The notes beneath the pieces are model-generated. The model saw only the letters and a program-made list of their open reading frames with translations, ran no database searches and was not told the origin of the DNA. A DNA stretch of 64,000 bases from Actinomycetota bacterium (lineage in GTDB: Bacteria; Actinomycetota; UBA4738; HRBIN12): positions 1,832 to 65,831 of the forward strand of contig DATIWE010000061.1 in the NCBI GenBank assembly GCA_035519495.1. The letters are read 5' to 3'. The position numbers and the translations under genes were made by a program. Positions within the stretch are counted from its first letter, which is position 1. Each line of letters begins with the position of its first letter. Below, one piece after another: positions 34,389 to 39,156 of the stretch.

Positions 34389-34562
34389 TCAGTCCGTCTC
34401 GACGAAGGATGGCGGAGACGCTTGTTGTGCGGCCGCCTGCACCACGACGCGCACAGGAGCTGCGGCGGCCGTGGCGTGGAGCGTCAGGGCTCGTGACGCG
34501 GTTCCGGCAACGAGGGCGAAGGCGAGTCCCGCTGCGACGATGAAGGCTGACGAGCGGCTCAT
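34389..34562 (-). CDS. Hypothetical 57-aa secreted or membrane-anchored protein
   Basis: RBS GGAAAGGAA; MSRSSAFIVAAGLAFALVAG is signal-peptide-like. Confidence 0.6.
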   Translation of the reverse strand: MSRSSAFIVAAGLAFALVAGTASRALTLHATAAAAPVRVVVQAAAQQASPPSFVETD

Positions 34563-34747
34563 GTCGGTTCCTTTCCATCTCGAGATCCCGGAGGGATCCC
34601 TCCGCATCCAGTACAAGCCCCGACTCTCTAACCGCCGGCAAAGGTCAGCACTGGGTTCGGGTAACGGTGTATGCGGGTTCTGTGTCCTCGGGGCTCCTCC
34701 GGCCGCGCAGACTTCCGAGGGAGGAACACGCTTCCGAGGCACCAGAT

Positions 34748-34765
34748 GGGGCCGCTCGCGACCCC
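34748..34765 (-). terminator. Hairpin directly after the tRNA CCA end
   Basis: Minus strand GGGGTCG-CGAG-CGGCCCC. Confidence 0.5.
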
Positions 34766-34766
34766 C

Positions 34767-34843
34767 TGGTGGAGGTGAGGGGATTTGAACCCCTGACCCC
34801 TGCCGTGCGAAGGCAGTGCTCTACCGGGCTGAGCTACACCCCC
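34767..34843 (-). tRNA. tRNA-Ala (anticodon CGC)
   Basis: 77-nt cloverleaf GGGGGTG-TA-GCTC...GAGC-A-CTGCC-TTCGCAC-GGCAG...AGGGG-TTCAAAT-CCCCT-CACCTCC-A-CCA, with the G3:U70 alanine identity pair and encoded CCA. -10 TACGCT lies 12 nt upstream. Confidence 0.97.
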
Positions 34844-34906
34844 GTGGGACGCATCAGCGTAGCAGAGGCCCCCGACGCGACCGAGGCTCCGGCGTTGAGG
34901 CGTACG

Positions 34907-35092
34907 ATGGCCTTGATGAGGAGTCGTGGGGTACCGCCGGCCAACGCGTGGCGGGCGTTCGTGCTGCCGGGCGATCGGGATGACGAACGCGATGACGTGC
35001 CGACGTCGAGGTGGAGTTGGTTGATCATCGCTGCCGGAACGGTCGTGGCGGCCGCCCTCTTCGTCGCTTGGGTCGTCCTCGGCAACCGCTAG
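34907..35092 (+). CDS. Possible 61-aa single-TM membrane protein
   Basis: RBS GAGG 6 nt before the ATG; C-terminal helix WSWLIIAAGTVVAAALFVAWVVLG. Confidence 0.5.
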   Translation: MALMRSRGVPPANAWRAFVLPGDRDDERDDVPTSRWSWLIIAAGTVVAAALFVAWVVLGNR

Positions 35093-35120
35093 CGGACGCT
35101 CACGATCGCGGATACCGCTC

Positions 35121-35756
35121 TCACGCGTCCCCTTCGAGCGTCCGGGCATGCCTGTCGAGCGCATCGTGGAGGTCGCGTTGCACGAACGCGATCGAGAGGT
35201 CGCCGCGGGTCTTCTCGATGAGCGACCGCGCCACGTCCGTCGAGCGCCGCAGGTTCATCGTGATCGCGTCGGGGTAGTCGATCGTCACGAGGACCCCGTA
35301 CAGATCCTCGAGCACGGCGAGCGTCCGCTCCGCGGTCGCGACGTCGCCGCCGCGCAGGAGATCGAGGATATGCCGGCGGCCCTCGCCGATCGCCTCGGCC
35401 ATCCCGTTGAGGTACGGAGCGTCGCCGACGCCGAGCTCCTCGGGCGGCGGGAACGGCCGCTCGGCCACCAGCGCGTAGGTCAGGTTCGCCTCTGCGTACT
35501 CCTTCTCCGCGTCCAGGAGGTACCCGGCGAACCGGACGTCGGGATGCGAGCCGACCGCGTCGAGCCCCTCGTCGAGCGCGGTCCGCGACGCCGCGATCAG
35601 CTCGGTCGCGCCTTCGAGCTCGCCGCGATGGATCGCTCGGATGGCGTTGGCGGAGGCCCGGATCGAGCGCCGAGCCGCCGGCAAGGCCCGTTCGCGGGCC
35701 GCGGTCTTGGCGTCGAAGCGTTCGTGCAGGGCGTCGGAGAGCGGATCGAGGTCCAC
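35121..35756 (-). CDS. Translin/TRAX family protein
   Basis: All-helical pattern with KEYAEA, YLNGMAEAIGEGRR and LRRSTD motifs. Start moved to GTG 35756. Confidence 0.8.
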   Translation of the reverse strand: MDLDPLSDALHERFDAKTAARERALPAARRSIRASANAIRAIHRGELEGATELIAASRTALDEGLDAVGSHPDVRFAGYLLDAEKEYAEANLTYALVAERPFPPPEELGVGDAPYLNGMAEAIGEGRRHILDLLRGGDVATAERTLAVLEDLYGVLVTIDYPDAITMNLRRSTDVARSLIEKTRGDLSIAFVQRDLHDALDRHARTLEGDA

Positions 35757-35763
35757 GCCGGGG

Positions 35764-36345
35764 TCAGGCGCCGACGGAGGCGGCGGCCGACGCAGGCCGG
35801 ACCACGACGTGCACGGGATCGTGCTGGCCGATCGCGCTGAGCCCGTTGAAGGTCTGCCGCGGGACGGCCGCCGGGCCGTCCGCGACGAAGCGCGGCGCAT
35901 GGCCGGGCTTCGGTCGCTCGGGAACGGCTGCGGCGCGCACGTGCTCGTGCGGGCGCGTCTCGCGGGCCTTGATCGAGAGCAGCAGCCACATGTACAGGAG
36001 CAGGAGGCCGGCCAGCCCGGCGCTCACGTACCAGACGACGCGCAGAGGCGGCACGAGCCCGATCAGGAACGACAGGACGATCGCCTCGATCAGGACCACG
36101 AAGACCTTGCGCCGGCGCTCACGCGCCCGCGACCGTTGCCGCTCCTGGGGACCGAGGAACCGAACGCCTTTGCGGGGGGTGACGATCCACCGCCCGTTCG
36201 TTCCGTGTACCTCCGCTTGCGCCAACAGCTCCATCCTGTGTTCGAAGTCATCCACCGAGGTCTTGCCGGCGTGCCGCCGGCGCCCGGTCGGGATCAGGAA
36301 TGCGGCCCACATGATGCATAACCCGCCCAGGAGCAGCCAATCCAC
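35764..36345 (-). CDS. GlpR/SepX-like membrane protein
   Basis: N-terminal LCIMWAAFLIP, RARERRRKVF followed by two TM helices, conserved position between moeA and tRNA-Ala, RBS AGGAGG before GTG 36345. Confidence 0.7.
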   Translation of the reverse strand: MDWLLLGGLCIMWAAFLIPTGRRRHAGKTSVDDFEHRMELLAQAEVHGTNGRWIVTPRKGVRFLGPQERQRSRARERRRKVFVVLIEAIVLSFLIGLVPPLRVVWYVSAGLAGLLLLYMWLLLSIKARETRPHEHVRAAAVPERPKPGHAPRFVADGPAAVPRQTFNGLSAIGQHDPVHVVVRPASAAASVGA

Positions 36346-36469
36346 CCGGTACGGCCTCCTGTCCGTCGAACCCCGGTCGACACAACATCTAGGCTGGGTG
36401 GGGACGCTAGCACCACATATAGTGCCGGGAAAGTACATCCGTGTGATTCGATCGAGGCGCCGCAGAACC

Positions 36470-36934
36470 TCATGCCCGGTAGGCGCCGGACTTCCCGCCG
36501 GACTTCGCCAGCAGGCGCACGCCCTCGATCCGAGCCGCGCGATCGAAGGCCTTCGCGGTGTCGTACAGGGAAAGCGCGGCGACGGCCGCGGCGGTCAGCG
36601 CCTCCATCTCGACGCCGGTGCGATCGAACGCCCGGACCGTCGACTGCACGCGGATCCGGCCGCTCGCCTCGTCGGCCTCGATCGAAACCTCGGAGCCGGT
36701 CACCCGGATCGGGTGGCAGTGCGGCAGGAGCCGGGGGGTCTCCTTCACGCCGATCACGCCGGCGATCTTCGCGGTCTCGAGCGGCGAGCCCTTCTTCGTG
36801 CCCGCCAGGAGCTCGGCGACCGTGGCGGGCGTGGTCACGAGCCATGCCTCAGCGACCGCCTCGCGTTCGGTGTCGGGCTTCGCACCGACCTCGACCATGC
36901 GCGTGACGCCGTCGGCACCGGCCTGGTCGGACAC
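36470..36934 (-). CDS. moaC: Cyclic pyranopterin monophosphate synthase
   Basis: MVEVGAK, AKIAG, LLPHCHP, TGVEMEAL and LYDTAKA motifs. Confidence 0.93.
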   Translation of the reverse strand: MSDQAGADGVTRMVEVGAKPDTEREAVAEAWLVTTPATVAELLAGTKKGSPLETAKIAGVIGVKETPRLLPHCHPIRVTGSEVSIEADEASGRIRVQSTVRAFDRTGVEMEALTAAAVAALSLYDTAKAFDRAARIEGVRLLAKSGGKSGAYRA

Positions 36935-36935
36935 C

Positions 36936-38195
36936 TCAGTCCTCGGACGCGCGGAACAGCAGGACGCGGAGCTGATCGCCCGGTCCCGCCTCCTCTACCC
37001 CCGCCGGCAGCACCGCGAGGCCGTTCGCGCGGGCGATCGTCGAGAGCAGGTTCGACCCGCGGCCGCCGGTCGGCGTGGCCGTCCAGCCCTCCGGACCTCG
37101 CGCGACCTCGACCCGCGCGAAGACCGTCTTCCCCTTCGGGCCCTTGACCGGACCCGTCAGCGTGGCCCGGACCTCAGGACGGCCCAGCTGGGTGCGTCCC
37201 ATCATCCGCAGCATCGCCGGCCGGACGAACATCTCGAAGCTCACGAAGACGCTGACGGGGTTGCCCGGCAACCCGAAGAACGGCTTGCCCTCGATGAAGC
37301 CGAACCCCTGCGGCATGCCGGGCTGCATCGCGACCTTGGAGAACTCGATCTCGCCGCGGCGGAAGAACGCCGCCTTCACGACGTCGCGCTCCCCCACCGA
37401 GATCCCGCCGGAGGACACGAACGCGTCCGCCTGGATCTCGAAGCTGAAGACCGTTTCCTTGAGCGAGTCCGGATCGTCCTTCACGATCCCGGCGAGCACC
37501 GGGATCGCGCCGACCTCGCGCAGCGCGCCGAACAACGTGTACGCGTTCGCGTCGCGCACCTGACCGAACGATGGGTTCTCGGTCGGCGGGATCAGCTCGT
37601 CGCCGGTGGACAGGACGATCACCCGAGGACGCGGGTGCACGAGCGGGTGCGGGATGCCGGCGTTCGCGAGCAACCCGAGCTCGGCGCCGGCGAGCCGCCG
37701 GCCCCGCGGCACGAGCAGGTCGCCCTCCTGGACGTCTTCGCCGCGCGGGCGCACGTGGTGCCCCTCGCCCGCGGGCTCGAACAGGCGGACGAGTCCGTCG
37801 TCCTCCTCCGCGTTCTCGACCGCGACGACGGTGTCGGCGCCGCCGGGCATCGGGGCGCCGGTGGCGATCTTCACGGCCTCGCCCATCCCGACCGTGGCCT
37901 CGGGACGCTTGCCCATCTCGGATCGGCCGACGATCTTGAGCTCGGCCGGGCGCTCCGGCGTGGCCTCCGCCACGTCGTAGGCACGCACCGCGAAGCCGTC
38001 CATCGCCGAGGAGGCGAACTCCGGCAGCGCAACGCGCGCGATCATGTCCTCCGCCGCGACGCAGCCGTACGCATCGGTCAGGGGCATCTGGAGCGGCGGC
38101 AGGGGCTCGATCCGCGAGAGCACCGCGCGGCGCGCTTCGTCCACCGGCACGAGTCCGTCCGCCGAGTCGTGATCGTGGATCCGGCGCTCGGTCAT
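36936..38195 (-). CDS. moeA: Molybdopterin molybdotransferase (gephyrin-like)
   Basis: SAMDGFAV, IATGAPMP, STGDEL, SSGGISVG and GLPGNPVS motifs. Leaderless ATG 38195. Confidence 0.95.
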   Translation of the reverse strand: MTERRIHDHDSADGLVPVDEARRAVLSRIEPLPPLQMPLTDAYGCVAAEDMIARVALPEFASSAMDGFAVRAYDVAEATPERPAELKIVGRSEMGKRPEATVGMGEAVKIATGAPMPGGADTVVAVENAEEDDGLVRLFEPAGEGHHVRPRGEDVQEGDLLVPRGRRLAGAELGLLANAGIPHPLVHPRPRVIVLSTGDELIPPTENPSFGQVRDANAYTLFGALREVGAIPVLAGIVKDDPDSLKETVFSFEIQADAFVSSGGISVGERDVVKAAFFRRGEIEFSKVAMQPGMPQGFGFIEGKPFFGLPGNPVSVFVSFEMFVRPAMLRMMGRTQLGRPEVRATLTGPVKGPKGKTVFARVEVARGPEGWTATPTGGRGSNLLSTIARANGLAVLPAGVEEAGPGDQLRVLLFRASED

Positions 38196-38259
38196 GGACG
38201 GCAGTCTATCCATGACGCGCGCCGGAGCGGGAGGGTCGGTCGCGCCGTGGCGCGGATCG

Positions 38260-39156
38260 CTAGACGAGCTTCTCGCGGACCACGAACTCGGCGAGCCACG
38301 CGCGGAACTCGGGTCCCAGGTCGTCCCGGCCGGCGGCCAGCTCGACGCTCGCCCGGAGCGCGTCGCGCGGGTTCCCCACGTCGTAGCGGCCGGAGTCGAA
38401 CCGGTACGCGTAGACCGCCTGCTCCTGCGCGAGGGCGTTGATCGCATCGGTCAGCTGGATCTCGCCCCCCTTGCCCGGCGCCGTCCGACGGAGCGCGTCG
38501 AAGATCTCCGGCGTGAAGACGTAGCGGCCGATCGCGGCGAGGTTCGACGGGGCCTCCTTCTCCGACGGCTTCTCGACGATCGACAGGATGCGGACGAGGT
38601 GCTCGTCGACCGGTTCGGGATCGATGCACCCGTACATGGAGATCTCCTGGCGGCTGACCTCCATCGTCGCGACGACGCTTCGCCCGAACGTGTCGTGGGC
38701 GCGCAGCATCTCGGGCAGCAGCGGCACCGACGGATGGATCAGGTCGTCGCCGAGGAGGACCGCGAACGGCTCGTCGCCGACGTGCGCCTCCGCCACCGAC
38801 ACCGCATGGCCGAGCCCGAGCGCCTCCTTCTGCCGGACGGTGTGGATCTCGGCCATGTCCGAGATCTGACGGATCGTCTTGAGCTCCTCGAACTTCCCCT
38901 TCGATTCGAGGAACAGCTCGAGCTCGATGCTCCGATCGAAGTGGTCCTCGATCGCCTGCTGCCCGCGGCTGGTGACGATCAGGATGTCCTCGATGCCGGC
39001 GCGCACGGCCTCCTCGACGACGAGCTGGATCGCGGGCGTGTCGACGATCGGGATCATCGCCTTCGGCTGTGCCTTCGTTGCCGGCAGGAAGCGCGTGCCG
39101 AGGCCGGCCGCCGGGATGACGCCCTTGCGAACCTTCGCGTGCCCTCTGGTTCCCAC
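38260..39156 (-). CDS. galU: UTP--glucose-1-phosphate uridylyltransferase
   Basis: VIPAAGLGTRFLPATK, RQKEALGLGHAV, VEKP and GEIQLTDAI motifs. Confidence 0.96.
   Translation of the reverse strand: MGTRGHAKVRKGVIPAAGLGTRFLPATKAQPKAMIPIVDTPAIQLVVEEAVRAGIEDILIVTSRGQQAIEDHFDRSIELELFLESKGKFEELKTIRQISDMAEIHTVRQKEALGLGHAVSVAEAHVGDEPFAVLLGDDLIHPSVPLLPEMLRAHDTFGRSVVATMEVSRQEISMYGCIDPEPVDEHLVRILSIVEKPSEKEAPSNLAAIGRYVFTPEIFDALRRTAPGKGGEIQLTDAINALAQEQAVYAYRFDSGRYDVGNPRDALRASVELAAGRDDLGPEFRAWLAEFVVREKLV

What the first reader, a model, noticed from the sequence alone, without database searches (positions are those of the whole stretch)
34767..35756. Bacterial translin/TRAX (C3PO-like) nuclease candidate next to a tRNA gene
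Seen: motifs KEYAEA, YLNGMAEAIGEGRR and LRRSTD, and a start 7 nt after the glpR-like stop. The gene lies about 280 bp upstream of tRNA-Ala on the same strand. Established: TRAX carries QEYVEA and YLxGxxDxxGELxR acidic catalytic residues; C3PO is an RNase in eukaryotic RNA silencing and in tRNA processing in Neurospora; an Archaeoglobus homo-octamer is active. Bacterial members are poorly characterised. Inference: the acidic residues are largely retained (Asp to Glu at one site), so this may be an active RNase in tRNA or small-RNA turnover.
Basis: partly seen in the sequence, partly recalled or inferred. Interest (0 to 1): 0.65.

Follow-up and report, generated by a model that had tools for sequence, protein, structure and literature searches.

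The report
Bacterial TRAX-like nuclease gene after glpR
This is a real bacterial relative of the archaeal/eukaryotic TRAX (C3PO) nucleic-acid-cutting enzyme with its active-site residues kept, common in uncultured Actinomycetota. Its position next to a tRNA gene is inherited gene order, not evidence that it processes tRNA.

Summary
Window 35121-35756 (-) encodes a 211-aa all-helical protein carrying KEYAEA, YLNGMAEAIGEGRR and LRRSTD. It starts 7 nt after the GlpR/SepX-like gene and ends 277 nt before tRNA-Ala(CGC) on the same strand.

It belongs to the translin superfamily, TRAX branch:
- AfTRAX matches at E 1.8e-20 with the single sequence and 3.8e-45 with a family profile.
- The AlphaFold model (pLDDT 97.6) superposes on AfC3PO at TM 0.82/0.91, rmsd 1.6 A.
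- The four metal-binding acidic positions are conserved in 65 diverse relatives: E86 and E89 in 64/65, position 121 always E or D, E125 in 65/65.

The family is large: 1527 clusters at 50% identity, and 162 of 401 sampled Actinomycetota genomes. It is already catalogued, as "translin" by JGI and misnamed "haloacid dehalogenase" by NCBI.

The tRNA inference fails:
- Relatives that lost the gene (at least 3 losses) keep tRNA-Ala directly after glpR.
- The tRNA has its own conserved extended -10 element (101/105 loci).
- In deep-branching classes the gene sits elsewhere.

The tight, conserved link is to glpR, with a 4-25 nt gap in about 70 loci. The most likely function is a homo-oligomeric, Mg-dependent C3PO-type endonuclease; this is untested. 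It is a new member of a known kind, of modest interest.

The parts
35121..35756 (-). TRAX-like (translin superfamily) CDS, 211 aa plus stop, GTG start
   Evidence: AfTRAX E 1.8e-20. AF2 pLDDT 97.6. Foldseek AfC3PO TM 0.82/0.91. dN/dS 0.13-0.36.
35487..35504 (-). KEYAEA motif (residues 85-90), holding catalytic-position Glu86 and Glu89
   Evidence: Aligns to AfTRAX 'QELVEA' and NEQ131 'QEYVEA'. E86 is conserved in 64/65 and E89 in 64/65 (the other is D) in alignment A2.
35373..35414 (-). YLNGMAEAIGEGRR motif (residues 115-128), holding Glu121 (Asp in archaeal and eukaryotic TRAX), Glu125, Arg127 and Arg128
   Evidence: Aligns to AfTRAX 'FLNGFADAVGELRR'. Position 121 is E in 48 and D in 17 of 65 sequences. 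E125, R127 and R128 are invariant in 65/65.
35235..35252 (-). LRRSTD motif (residues 169-174) at the start of the last long helix
   Evidence: L169 60/65, R170 59/65, D174 65/65. Downstream R177 and E181 are invariant.
35764..36438 (-). GlpR/SepX-like membrane divisome protein gene, directly upstream; stop 7 nt before the TRAX start
   Evidence: NCBIfam SepX_GlpR_2 E 2.3e-8, below the family cut-off. The glpR-to-TRAX gap is 4-25 nt in most of 80 related loci.
36470..38447 (-). moaC (36470-36934) and the MoeA-like glp gene (36936-38447) of the conserved galU-glp-moaC-glpR-TRAX cluster
   Evidence: Pfam MoaC and MoeA_N/MoCF/MoeA_C. NCBIfam Glp_gephyrin 423.6 bits, below the 475 cut-off. Synteny.
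34767..34843 (-). tRNA-Ala(CGC)
   Evidence: ARAGORN. Present after the cluster in relatives with and without the TRAX gene.
34856..34864 (-). TGCTACGCT: extended -10-like element 12 nt upstream of the tRNA 5' end (the tRNA's own promoter, inferred)
   Evidence: TANNNT lies at -26..-7 in 101/105 loci (96 with TGN), including 6/6 TRAX-less loci. A control window 40 nt further upstream has 1/105.
34890..35120 (.). Insertion of about 231 nt between the TRAX stop and the tRNA promoter, specific to this genome; holds a possible 61-aa + strand ORF (34907-35092)
   Evidence: Absent in G013 and G011, where the gap is about 43 nt. Single copy in the genome. No homologue of the ORF in the other loci.

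Best explanation
The gene encodes a prokaryotic TRAX-type (C3PO-like) nuclease subunit. It is the only translin-family gene found in this 88%-complete genome. By analogy with Archaeoglobus and Nanoarchaeum C3PO, it most likely forms a hollow homo-octamer. Inside that shell, Glu86, Glu89, Glu121 and Glu125 would bind two Mg2+/Mn2+ ions and cleave short single-stranded, and possibly short duplex, RNA or DNA. Conserved basic residues (R29, R33, R40, H43, R44, R127, R128) would hold the backbone. The gene is expressed as the last cistron of the conserved glp-moaC-glpR unit, 7 nt after glpR. The downstream tRNA-Ala is a separate transcription unit with its own extended -10 promoter. Shown here: homology, fold, residue conservation, synteny, gene losses and the promoter motif. 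Inferred: oligomeric state, catalysis, substrate, and a general RNA-fragment clearing role.
For: Homology and fold:
- phmmer finds AfTRAX 3zc1 at E 1.8e-20 and NEQ131 at 1.3e-6.
- The family profile finds AfTRAX at 3.8e-45, NEQ131 at 8.8e-22, human TRAX at 4.8e-15 and fly TRAX at 1e-10, with no translin at E<=0.01.
- 53/65 relatives touch Pfam Translin at a lenient E<=10, best 1.8e-16.
- The AF2 model has pLDDT 97.6 and pTM 0.91 and is all-helical.
- The top 13 Foldseek hits are AfC3PO or NeC3PO chains, followed by TRAX and then translin.

Active site and selection:
- The acidic tetrad and R127/R128 are conserved across 65 sequences of 32-50% identity.
- The NeTrax residues E82/E85/D117/E121 are shown to coordinate two cations and are needed for cleavage (PMC5100593).
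- dN/dS is 0.13-0.36.
- There is a single copy in the genome.

Context:
- The glpR-to-TRAX gap is 4-25 nt in most of 80 loci.
- The galU-glp-moaC-glpR-TRAX order holds in 25/25 loci of the order and in 12/20 phylum-wide loci.
Against: - No biochemical data exist for any bacterial member (searches found none).
- The window protein itself gets no Pfam Translin hit and scores below the NF011160 equivalog cut-off (238.9 vs 291 bits).
- The third acidic residue is Glu, not Asp, and the Leu of 'GELRR' is Gly here (2/65 in the family), with unknown effect on metal geometry.
- The gene was lost at least 3 times among close relatives, so it is dispensable.
- Octamer formation could not be tested.
Confidence: 0.72

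Rival explanations
1. This is the first reader's reading: a tRNA-dedicated C3PO. The nuclease would process or clear fragments of the adjacent pre-tRNA-Ala (or tRNAs in general), as Neurospora C3PO removes 5' pre-tRNA fragments, and the gene-tRNA adjacency would reflect that function.
For: - tRNA-Ala(CGC) lies downstream on the same strand in the window and in nearly all loci of the order, usually 27-65 nt after the stop.
- One unrelated-context locus (L154) has tRNA-Asp 170 nt downstream.
- Archaeal TRAX genes are often in an operon with SepRS, a tRNA-charging enzyme (PMC5424206).
Against: - Six relatives without the TRAX gene keep tRNA-Ala 10-51 nt after glpR.
- On the Glp tree the absences are nested losses, at least 3.
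- The tRNA has its own conserved extended -10 element in 101/105 loci, including 6/6 TRAX-less ones.
- Seven of 8 loci outside the glp context have no tRNA within 4 kb.
- In the window itself a 231-nt insertion separates the two.
Confidence: 0.1
2. A division-coupled nuclease: the TRAX-like protein would be a functional accessory of the Glp-GlpR (gephyrin-like/SepX) divisome module, for example a nucleic-acid-cutting or -binding factor recruited to GlpR at the septum.
For: - It lies directly after glpR with a 4-25 nt gap in about 70 of 80 loci, and in the same cluster in 12/20 phylum-wide loci.
- The glp-glpR context is known to be conserved (PMC10522489).
Against: - glpR persists without it after repeated losses.
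- The gene occurs in unrelated contexts (cyclase/aminotransferase, Hsp33/HAD) in deep-branching classes.
- Conserved gene order in Actinomycetota often reflects ancestry, not function.
- There is no interaction evidence.
Confidence: 0.12
3. A non-catalytic, translin-like nucleic-acid-binding protein; or, as NCBI's product name says, a haloacid dehalogenase superfamily hydrolase.
For: - Translin, which shares the fold, binds but does not cut.
- NCBIfam NF011156-NF011161 are titled 'haloacid dehalogenase superfamily protein', and NCBI records carry that name.
Against: - All four acidic positions that translin lacks are kept under strong constraint.
- The profile finds TRAX proteins, not translin.
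- There is no HAD Pfam hit.
- The model is all-alpha with no Rossmann-like core, and there is no HAD structure among the Foldseek hits.
Confidence: 0.06

Closest known systems
AfTRAX / AfC3PO of Archaeoglobus fulgidus (PDB 3ZC0, 3ZC1)
   Same: - 34% identity over 189 aligned columns, TM 0.82/0.91, rmsd 1.6 A; E 1.8e-20.
- About 200 aa, with no N- or C-terminal extensions.
- Single gene per genome, which implies a homo-oligomer.
- Same ExxE and (D/E)xxxE motifs followed by RR.
   Different: - Bacterial, not archaeal.
- Glu in place of Asp114.
- Gly in place of the Leu of GELRR.
- Sits after the actinobacterial glpR divisome gene.
- Oligomer and activity are untested.
NeTrax / NeC3PO of Nanoarchaeum equitans (PDB 5JR9, 5JRC, 5JRE)
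   Same: Same fold (TM 0.74/0.83). The catalytic tetrad E82/E85/D117/E121 and Arg124 map to E86/E89/E121/E125 and R128 here.
   Different: Only 23% identity. The two-metal mechanism and the ssRNA preference over ssDNA are shown for NeC3PO only (PMC5100593).
Eukaryotic TRAX in translin-TRAX C3PO (human 3PJA, Drosophila 3AXJ/3RIU)
   Same: The family profile hits human TRAX at E 4.8e-15 and fly TRAX at 1e-10. Fold TM is about 0.8. The catalytic subunit type is the same.
   Different: There is no translin partner gene, no RNAi pathway, and none of the eukaryotic insertions. Identity is 14-16%.
Bacterial translin-superfamily proteins reported from Chloroflexi (Gupta et al. 2012, as cited in PMC5100593)
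   Same: Single-gene bacterial homologues close to the archaeal proteins, and uncharacterised.
   Different: In the papers I could read, bacterial members are credited to Chloroflexi only. Here the family is in 162/401 sampled Actinomycetota genomes with a conserved position after glpR.

Membership tests
Translin superfamily, TRAX-like branch (prokaryotic C3PO) | All-alpha translin fold (long antiparallel helices) | tested here: met
   AF2 pLDDT 97.6 with only helices. Foldseek prob 1.00 to AfC3PO, NeC3PO, human and fly TRAX, and translin.
Translin superfamily, TRAX-like branch (prokaryotic C3PO) | Significant sequence similarity to TRAX proteins | tested here: met
   AfTRAX at E 1.8e-20. Profile hits: AfTRAX 3.8e-45, NEQ131 8.8e-22, human TRAX 4.8e-15.
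Translin superfamily, TRAX-like branch (prokaryotic C3PO) | Four metal-binding acidic residues (E, E, D, E of TRAX) that translin lacks | tested here: met
   E86, E89, E121 and E125 are present. Across 65 relatives the counts are 64/65, 64/65 (plus 1 D), E48/D17 and 65/65. Asp is replaced by Glu at the third site.
Translin superfamily, TRAX-like branch (prokaryotic C3PO) | Match to the curated family models (Pfam PF01997 Translin; NCBIfam NF011160 equivalog) | tested here: inconclusive
   The window protein has no PF01997 hit even at E<=10, while 53/65 relatives touch it at that lenient threshold (best 1.8e-16). NF011160 gives E 3.7e-71 but 238.9 bits, below the 291 cut-off.
Translin superfamily, TRAX-like branch (prokaryotic C3PO) | Octameric hollow assembly | not testable with these tools
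   Only single-chain prediction is available. A single gene copy in the genome is compatible with a homo-oligomer.
Translin superfamily, TRAX-like branch (prokaryotic C3PO) | Mg2+/Mn2+-dependent endonuclease activity | not testable with these tools
   This needs a bench assay. It has been shown only for the archaeal and eukaryotic enzymes (PMC5100593).
tRNA-processing C3PO (Neurospora type role) | Specific association with tRNA genes or tRNA processing | tested here: not met
   The tRNA stays when the gene is lost. The tRNA has its own promoter motif. Seven of 8 loci outside the glp context have no tRNA.
Haloacid dehalogenase (HAD) superfamily (NCBI product name) | Rossmann-like alpha/beta core with DxD nucleophile motif; HAD Pfam models | tested here: not met
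   No HAD Pfam hit, an all-helical model, and no HAD structure among the Foldseek matches.

The most novel reading that the evidence does not exclude
In a large part of Actinomycetota a C3PO-type nuclease has been built into the Glp-GlpR (gephyrin-like/SepX) cell-division gene unit and is translated right after the membrane receptor GlpR. It would act with the divisome, for example clearing RNA or DNA at the closing septum or tuning division-gene transcripts. That would be a role unknown for any translin-family protein.
Probability: 0.1. Interest if true: 0.7.

Novelty: new member of a known kind. Interest (0 to 1): 0.3.

Why it matters
No bacterial translin or TRAX protein has been studied at the bench. 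In the literature I could read, bacterial members are credited to Chloroflexi only. This family is in about 40% of sampled Actinomycetota genomes, keeps the catalytic tetrad, and folds with very high confidence. It is therefore an easy target for a first bacterial C3PO structure and activity study, and for asking what C3PO did before RNA interference existed. Three practical points follow. The NCBI name 'haloacid dehalogenase' for the family is wrong. The tRNA adjacency that keeps attracting attention in this scan is a synteny artefact. The real conserved partner is glpR.

Tried and rejected
- Pfam on the window protein alone: no hit.
- PADLOC defence models: no hit for the protein or the small ORF, and core synteny also argues against a defence island.
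- Rfam with permissive thresholds over 34500-36500: only the tRNA and tRNA-like partial matches, with no riboswitch or leader.
- Sigma-70 consensus and terminator scan of 34600-36600: nothing. The actinobacterial TANNNT element was found only by comparing 105 loci.
- The 231-nt insertion as a repeat or mobile element: single copy in the genome.
- Gene neighbours outside the glp context as functional clues: cyclase, aminotransferase, Hsp33, HAD hydrolase, MEDS and a SpoIIE/GAF/PAS phosphatase, with no common RNA theme.
- Literature searches for actinobacterial translin or COG2178: nothing relevant.

Full report
**1. Observation**

The six-frame ORF list shows an open frame at 35121..35900 on the minus strand. 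Translation from the GTG at 35756 gives 211 residues (P0001).

- The upstream GlpR/SepX-like ORF (35764..36438, -) ends with TGA at 35766-35764. Seven bases (ccccggc) separate it from the GTG.
- ARAGORN finds one tRNA in the whole window, tRNA-Ala(CGC) at 34767-34843 (-). It lies 277 nt after the stop codon on the same strand.
- The start is credible. Homologues are 210-213 aa and cover 98-100% of the query, and relatives begin at the same position with VDLD, VDPD, MDLE or MNLD.
- dN/dS against nine relatives is 0.13-0.36, so this is a real gene under constraint.

**2. What the protein is**

Sequence evidence:
- Pfam finds nothing for this sequence alone.
- NCBIfam finds the six PRK14562 sub-models titled 'haloacid dehalogenase superfamily protein'. 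The best is NF011160, at E 3.7e-71 and 238.9 bits against a cut-off of 291.
- Against PDB sequences the best hits are AfTRAX (3ZC1/3ZC0, E 1.8e-20) and NEQ131, the Nanoarchaeum Trax (E 1.3e-6).
- A profile of 65 diverse relatives (alignment A2, 32-50% identical to the query) finds AfTRAX at 3.8e-45, NEQ131 at 8.8e-22, human TRAX at 4.8e-15 and Drosophila TRAX at 1e-10. It finds no translin at E<=0.01.
- 53 of those 65 relatives touch Pfam Translin PF01997 at a lenient E<=10 (best 1.8e-16).

Fold evidence:
- AlphaFold2 with A2 gives mean pLDDT 97.6 and pTM 0.91, all helices.
- Foldseek against the PDB ranks AfC3PO chains first (TM 0.82/0.91, rmsd 1.6 A, 34% identity over 189 columns). NeC3PO, human and fly TRAX, and then translins follow.
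- The fold and the branch (TRAX-like, not translin-like) are therefore settled. The HAD name is a misnomer.

**3. Active site**

For NeTrax, E82, E85, D117 and E121 bind two cations and are needed for cleavage, and R124 contacts the substrate (PMC5100593). The HMMER alignments map these to E86, E89, E121, E125 and R128 here.

In A2 the conservation is as follows:

| Position | Residues across 65 sequences |
|---|---|
| 86 | E in 64/65 |
| 89 | E in 64/65, D in 1 |
| 121 | E in 48, D in 17 |
| 125 | E in 65/65 |
| R127, R128 | invariant |
| H43, D174, R177, E181 | invariant |
| R29, R44 | nearly invariant (64/65 and 61/65) |

The Gly in 'GEGRR' is rare (2/65).

Only one family member is found in the genome (the genome is 88% complete). 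That matches the homo-oligomeric archaeal C3POs. Oligomer state and activity are inferred, not shown.

**4. Distribution**

- The word-indexed search returned at least 6847 proteins among the 8000 candidates it scored. JGI names them 'translin' and NCBI names them 'haloacid dehalogenase'.
- The exhaustive search found 1527 clusters at 50% identity with E<=1e-3.
- 27 of 41 close relatives have the gene.
- 162 of 401 evenly drawn genomes of the phylum have it, covering 123 of 252 genera.
- The 80 best named loci are all uncultured Actinomycetota MAGs. More distant carriers include Ca. Aquicultor and Ca. Solincola.
- In 14 control genomes the NF011160 model rings only in three archaea.
- The papers I could read credit bacterial members to Chloroflexi only (PMC5100593 citing Gupta 2012). 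I found none on Actinomycetota.

**5. Context, and the tRNA question**

Within the order:
- All 25 loci first examined share the order galU - glp (MoeA-like) - moaC - glpR - TRAX.
- tRNA-Ala(CGC) lies downstream in 24 of them.
- In the 80 named loci the glpR-to-TRAX gap is mostly 4-25 nt. The TRAX-to-tRNA gap is mostly 27-65 nt, with some insertions of 150-1550 nt.

Across the phylum:
- 12 of 20 diverse loci keep the cluster.
- Eight lie elsewhere, and seven of those have no tRNA within 4 kb. One has tRNA-Asp 170 nt downstream.
- Neighbours in those loci are a putative cyclase with an aminotransferase-like ORF, Hsp33 and a HAD hydrolase, a MEDS protein, and a SpoIIE/GAF/PAS phosphatase.

The decisive test came from relatives that lack the gene:
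- In five same-genus genomes and one of another family, tblastn finds no TRAX remnant. tRNA-Ala(CGC) follows glpR directly, with a gap of 10-51 nt where the glpR reading frame could be followed.
- On a Glp protein tree these absences are nested inside TRAX-bearing clades and need at least three changes, most simply losses.

The tRNA also has its own promoter element:
- TANNNT lies in positions -26 to -7 before the tRNA in 101 of 105 loci (96 with an upstream TGN), including 6/6 TRAX-less loci.
- A control window 40 nt further upstream has 1 of 105.
- In the window this element is TGCTACGCT at 34856-34864 (-).

The tRNA is therefore an old landmark of the glp cluster and a separate transcription unit. 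Its adjacency says nothing specific about the nuclease. In this particular genome a 231-nt insertion (34890-35120) pushes the two apart. It is absent from G013, whose TRAX protein is identical or differs at a single residue.

**6. Mechanism I commit to**

This is a homo-octameric, two-metal-ion endonuclease of the C3PO type. It acts on short single-stranded RNA, and possibly on short duplex RNA or DNA, that enters the shell. It is produced together with GlpR as the last cistron of that unit. Its likely cellular role is general clearing of RNA fragments. I put this at about 0.72.

The rivals are:
- A tRNA-dedicated role (0.10).
- A functional tie to the Glp-GlpR divisome (0.12). This is the most novel reading still open, supported only by tight and widespread gene coupling, and weakened by the repeated losses and the other contexts.
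- A non-catalytic binder or HAD enzyme (0.06).

**7. Comparison and novelty**

The closest known protein is AfTRAX/AfC3PO. This is a new (bacterial, actinobacterial) member of a known kind. It is already catalogued by NCBIfam and JGI, though misnamed by NCBI, and it has never been characterised.

Earlier follow-ups of this scan on other windows reached the same conclusions (e1-750808, e1-5104845). I read them after my own tests were done. They are not independent evidence, but they show that the finding recurs.

Interest is modest at 0.3.

Noticed in passing
window 34890-35120 (ORF 34907-35092, +): An insertion of about 231 nt lies between the TRAX stop and the tRNA-Ala promoter. It is absent in G013, whose TRAX protein is identical or differs at one residue, and in G011. 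It is single copy in the genome. It holds a possible 61-aa ORF with a C-terminal hydrophobic helix and no homologue in about 170 related loci.
   Followed up: partly
window 34856-34864 (-), and 105 related loci: A conserved extended -10-like element TG(C/T)TA(C/G)(G/C)CT lies 10-15 nt before tRNA-Ala(CGC) across an order and beyond (101/105 loci). It is a clean example of an actinobacterial tRNA promoter with almost no leader.
   Followed up: yes
window 35764-36438 (-): The GlpR/SepX-like ORF begins with a conserved Cys-rich stretch (M.F.GT.CGA.VP.QPRCC) before its membrane helix. In TRAX-less relatives its C-terminal tail is shorter and different (194-211 aa against 224 aa).
   Followed up: partly
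L081 (JBLMXP010000010.1): The record is labelled 'Planctomycetaceae bacterium MAG253', but its Glp and TRAX genes nest inside the window's Actinomycetota genus on the tree. The bin or contig is probably mislabelled.
   Followed up: no
NCBIfam NF011156-NF011161; NCBI records of the family: The product name 'haloacid dehalogenase (superfamily protein)' is attached to an all-alpha translin-fold family, so the annotation error is being propagated. In one locus (L161) a true HAD hydrolase gene lies directly downstream of the TRAX-like gene.
   Followed up: partly
L104 (CAWFJH010000001.1): The TRAX reading frame runs through the tRNA promoter element and stops only 8 nt before tRNA-Ala, so the coding sequence and the tRNA promoter overlap there.
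   Followed up: no
L152, L153, L154: In a deep-branching Actinomycetota lineage the TRAX-like gene follows a putative cyclase gene (Pfam Cyclase). In L152 and L154 an aminotransferase-like ORF, which I did not scan against Pfam, precedes the cyclase gene. In L152 the TRAX-like gene faces a GAF-PAS-SpoIIE phosphatase gene, and ORFs of similar size (about 900-960 aa) face it in L153 and L154. This is a second conserved context.
   Followed up: partly
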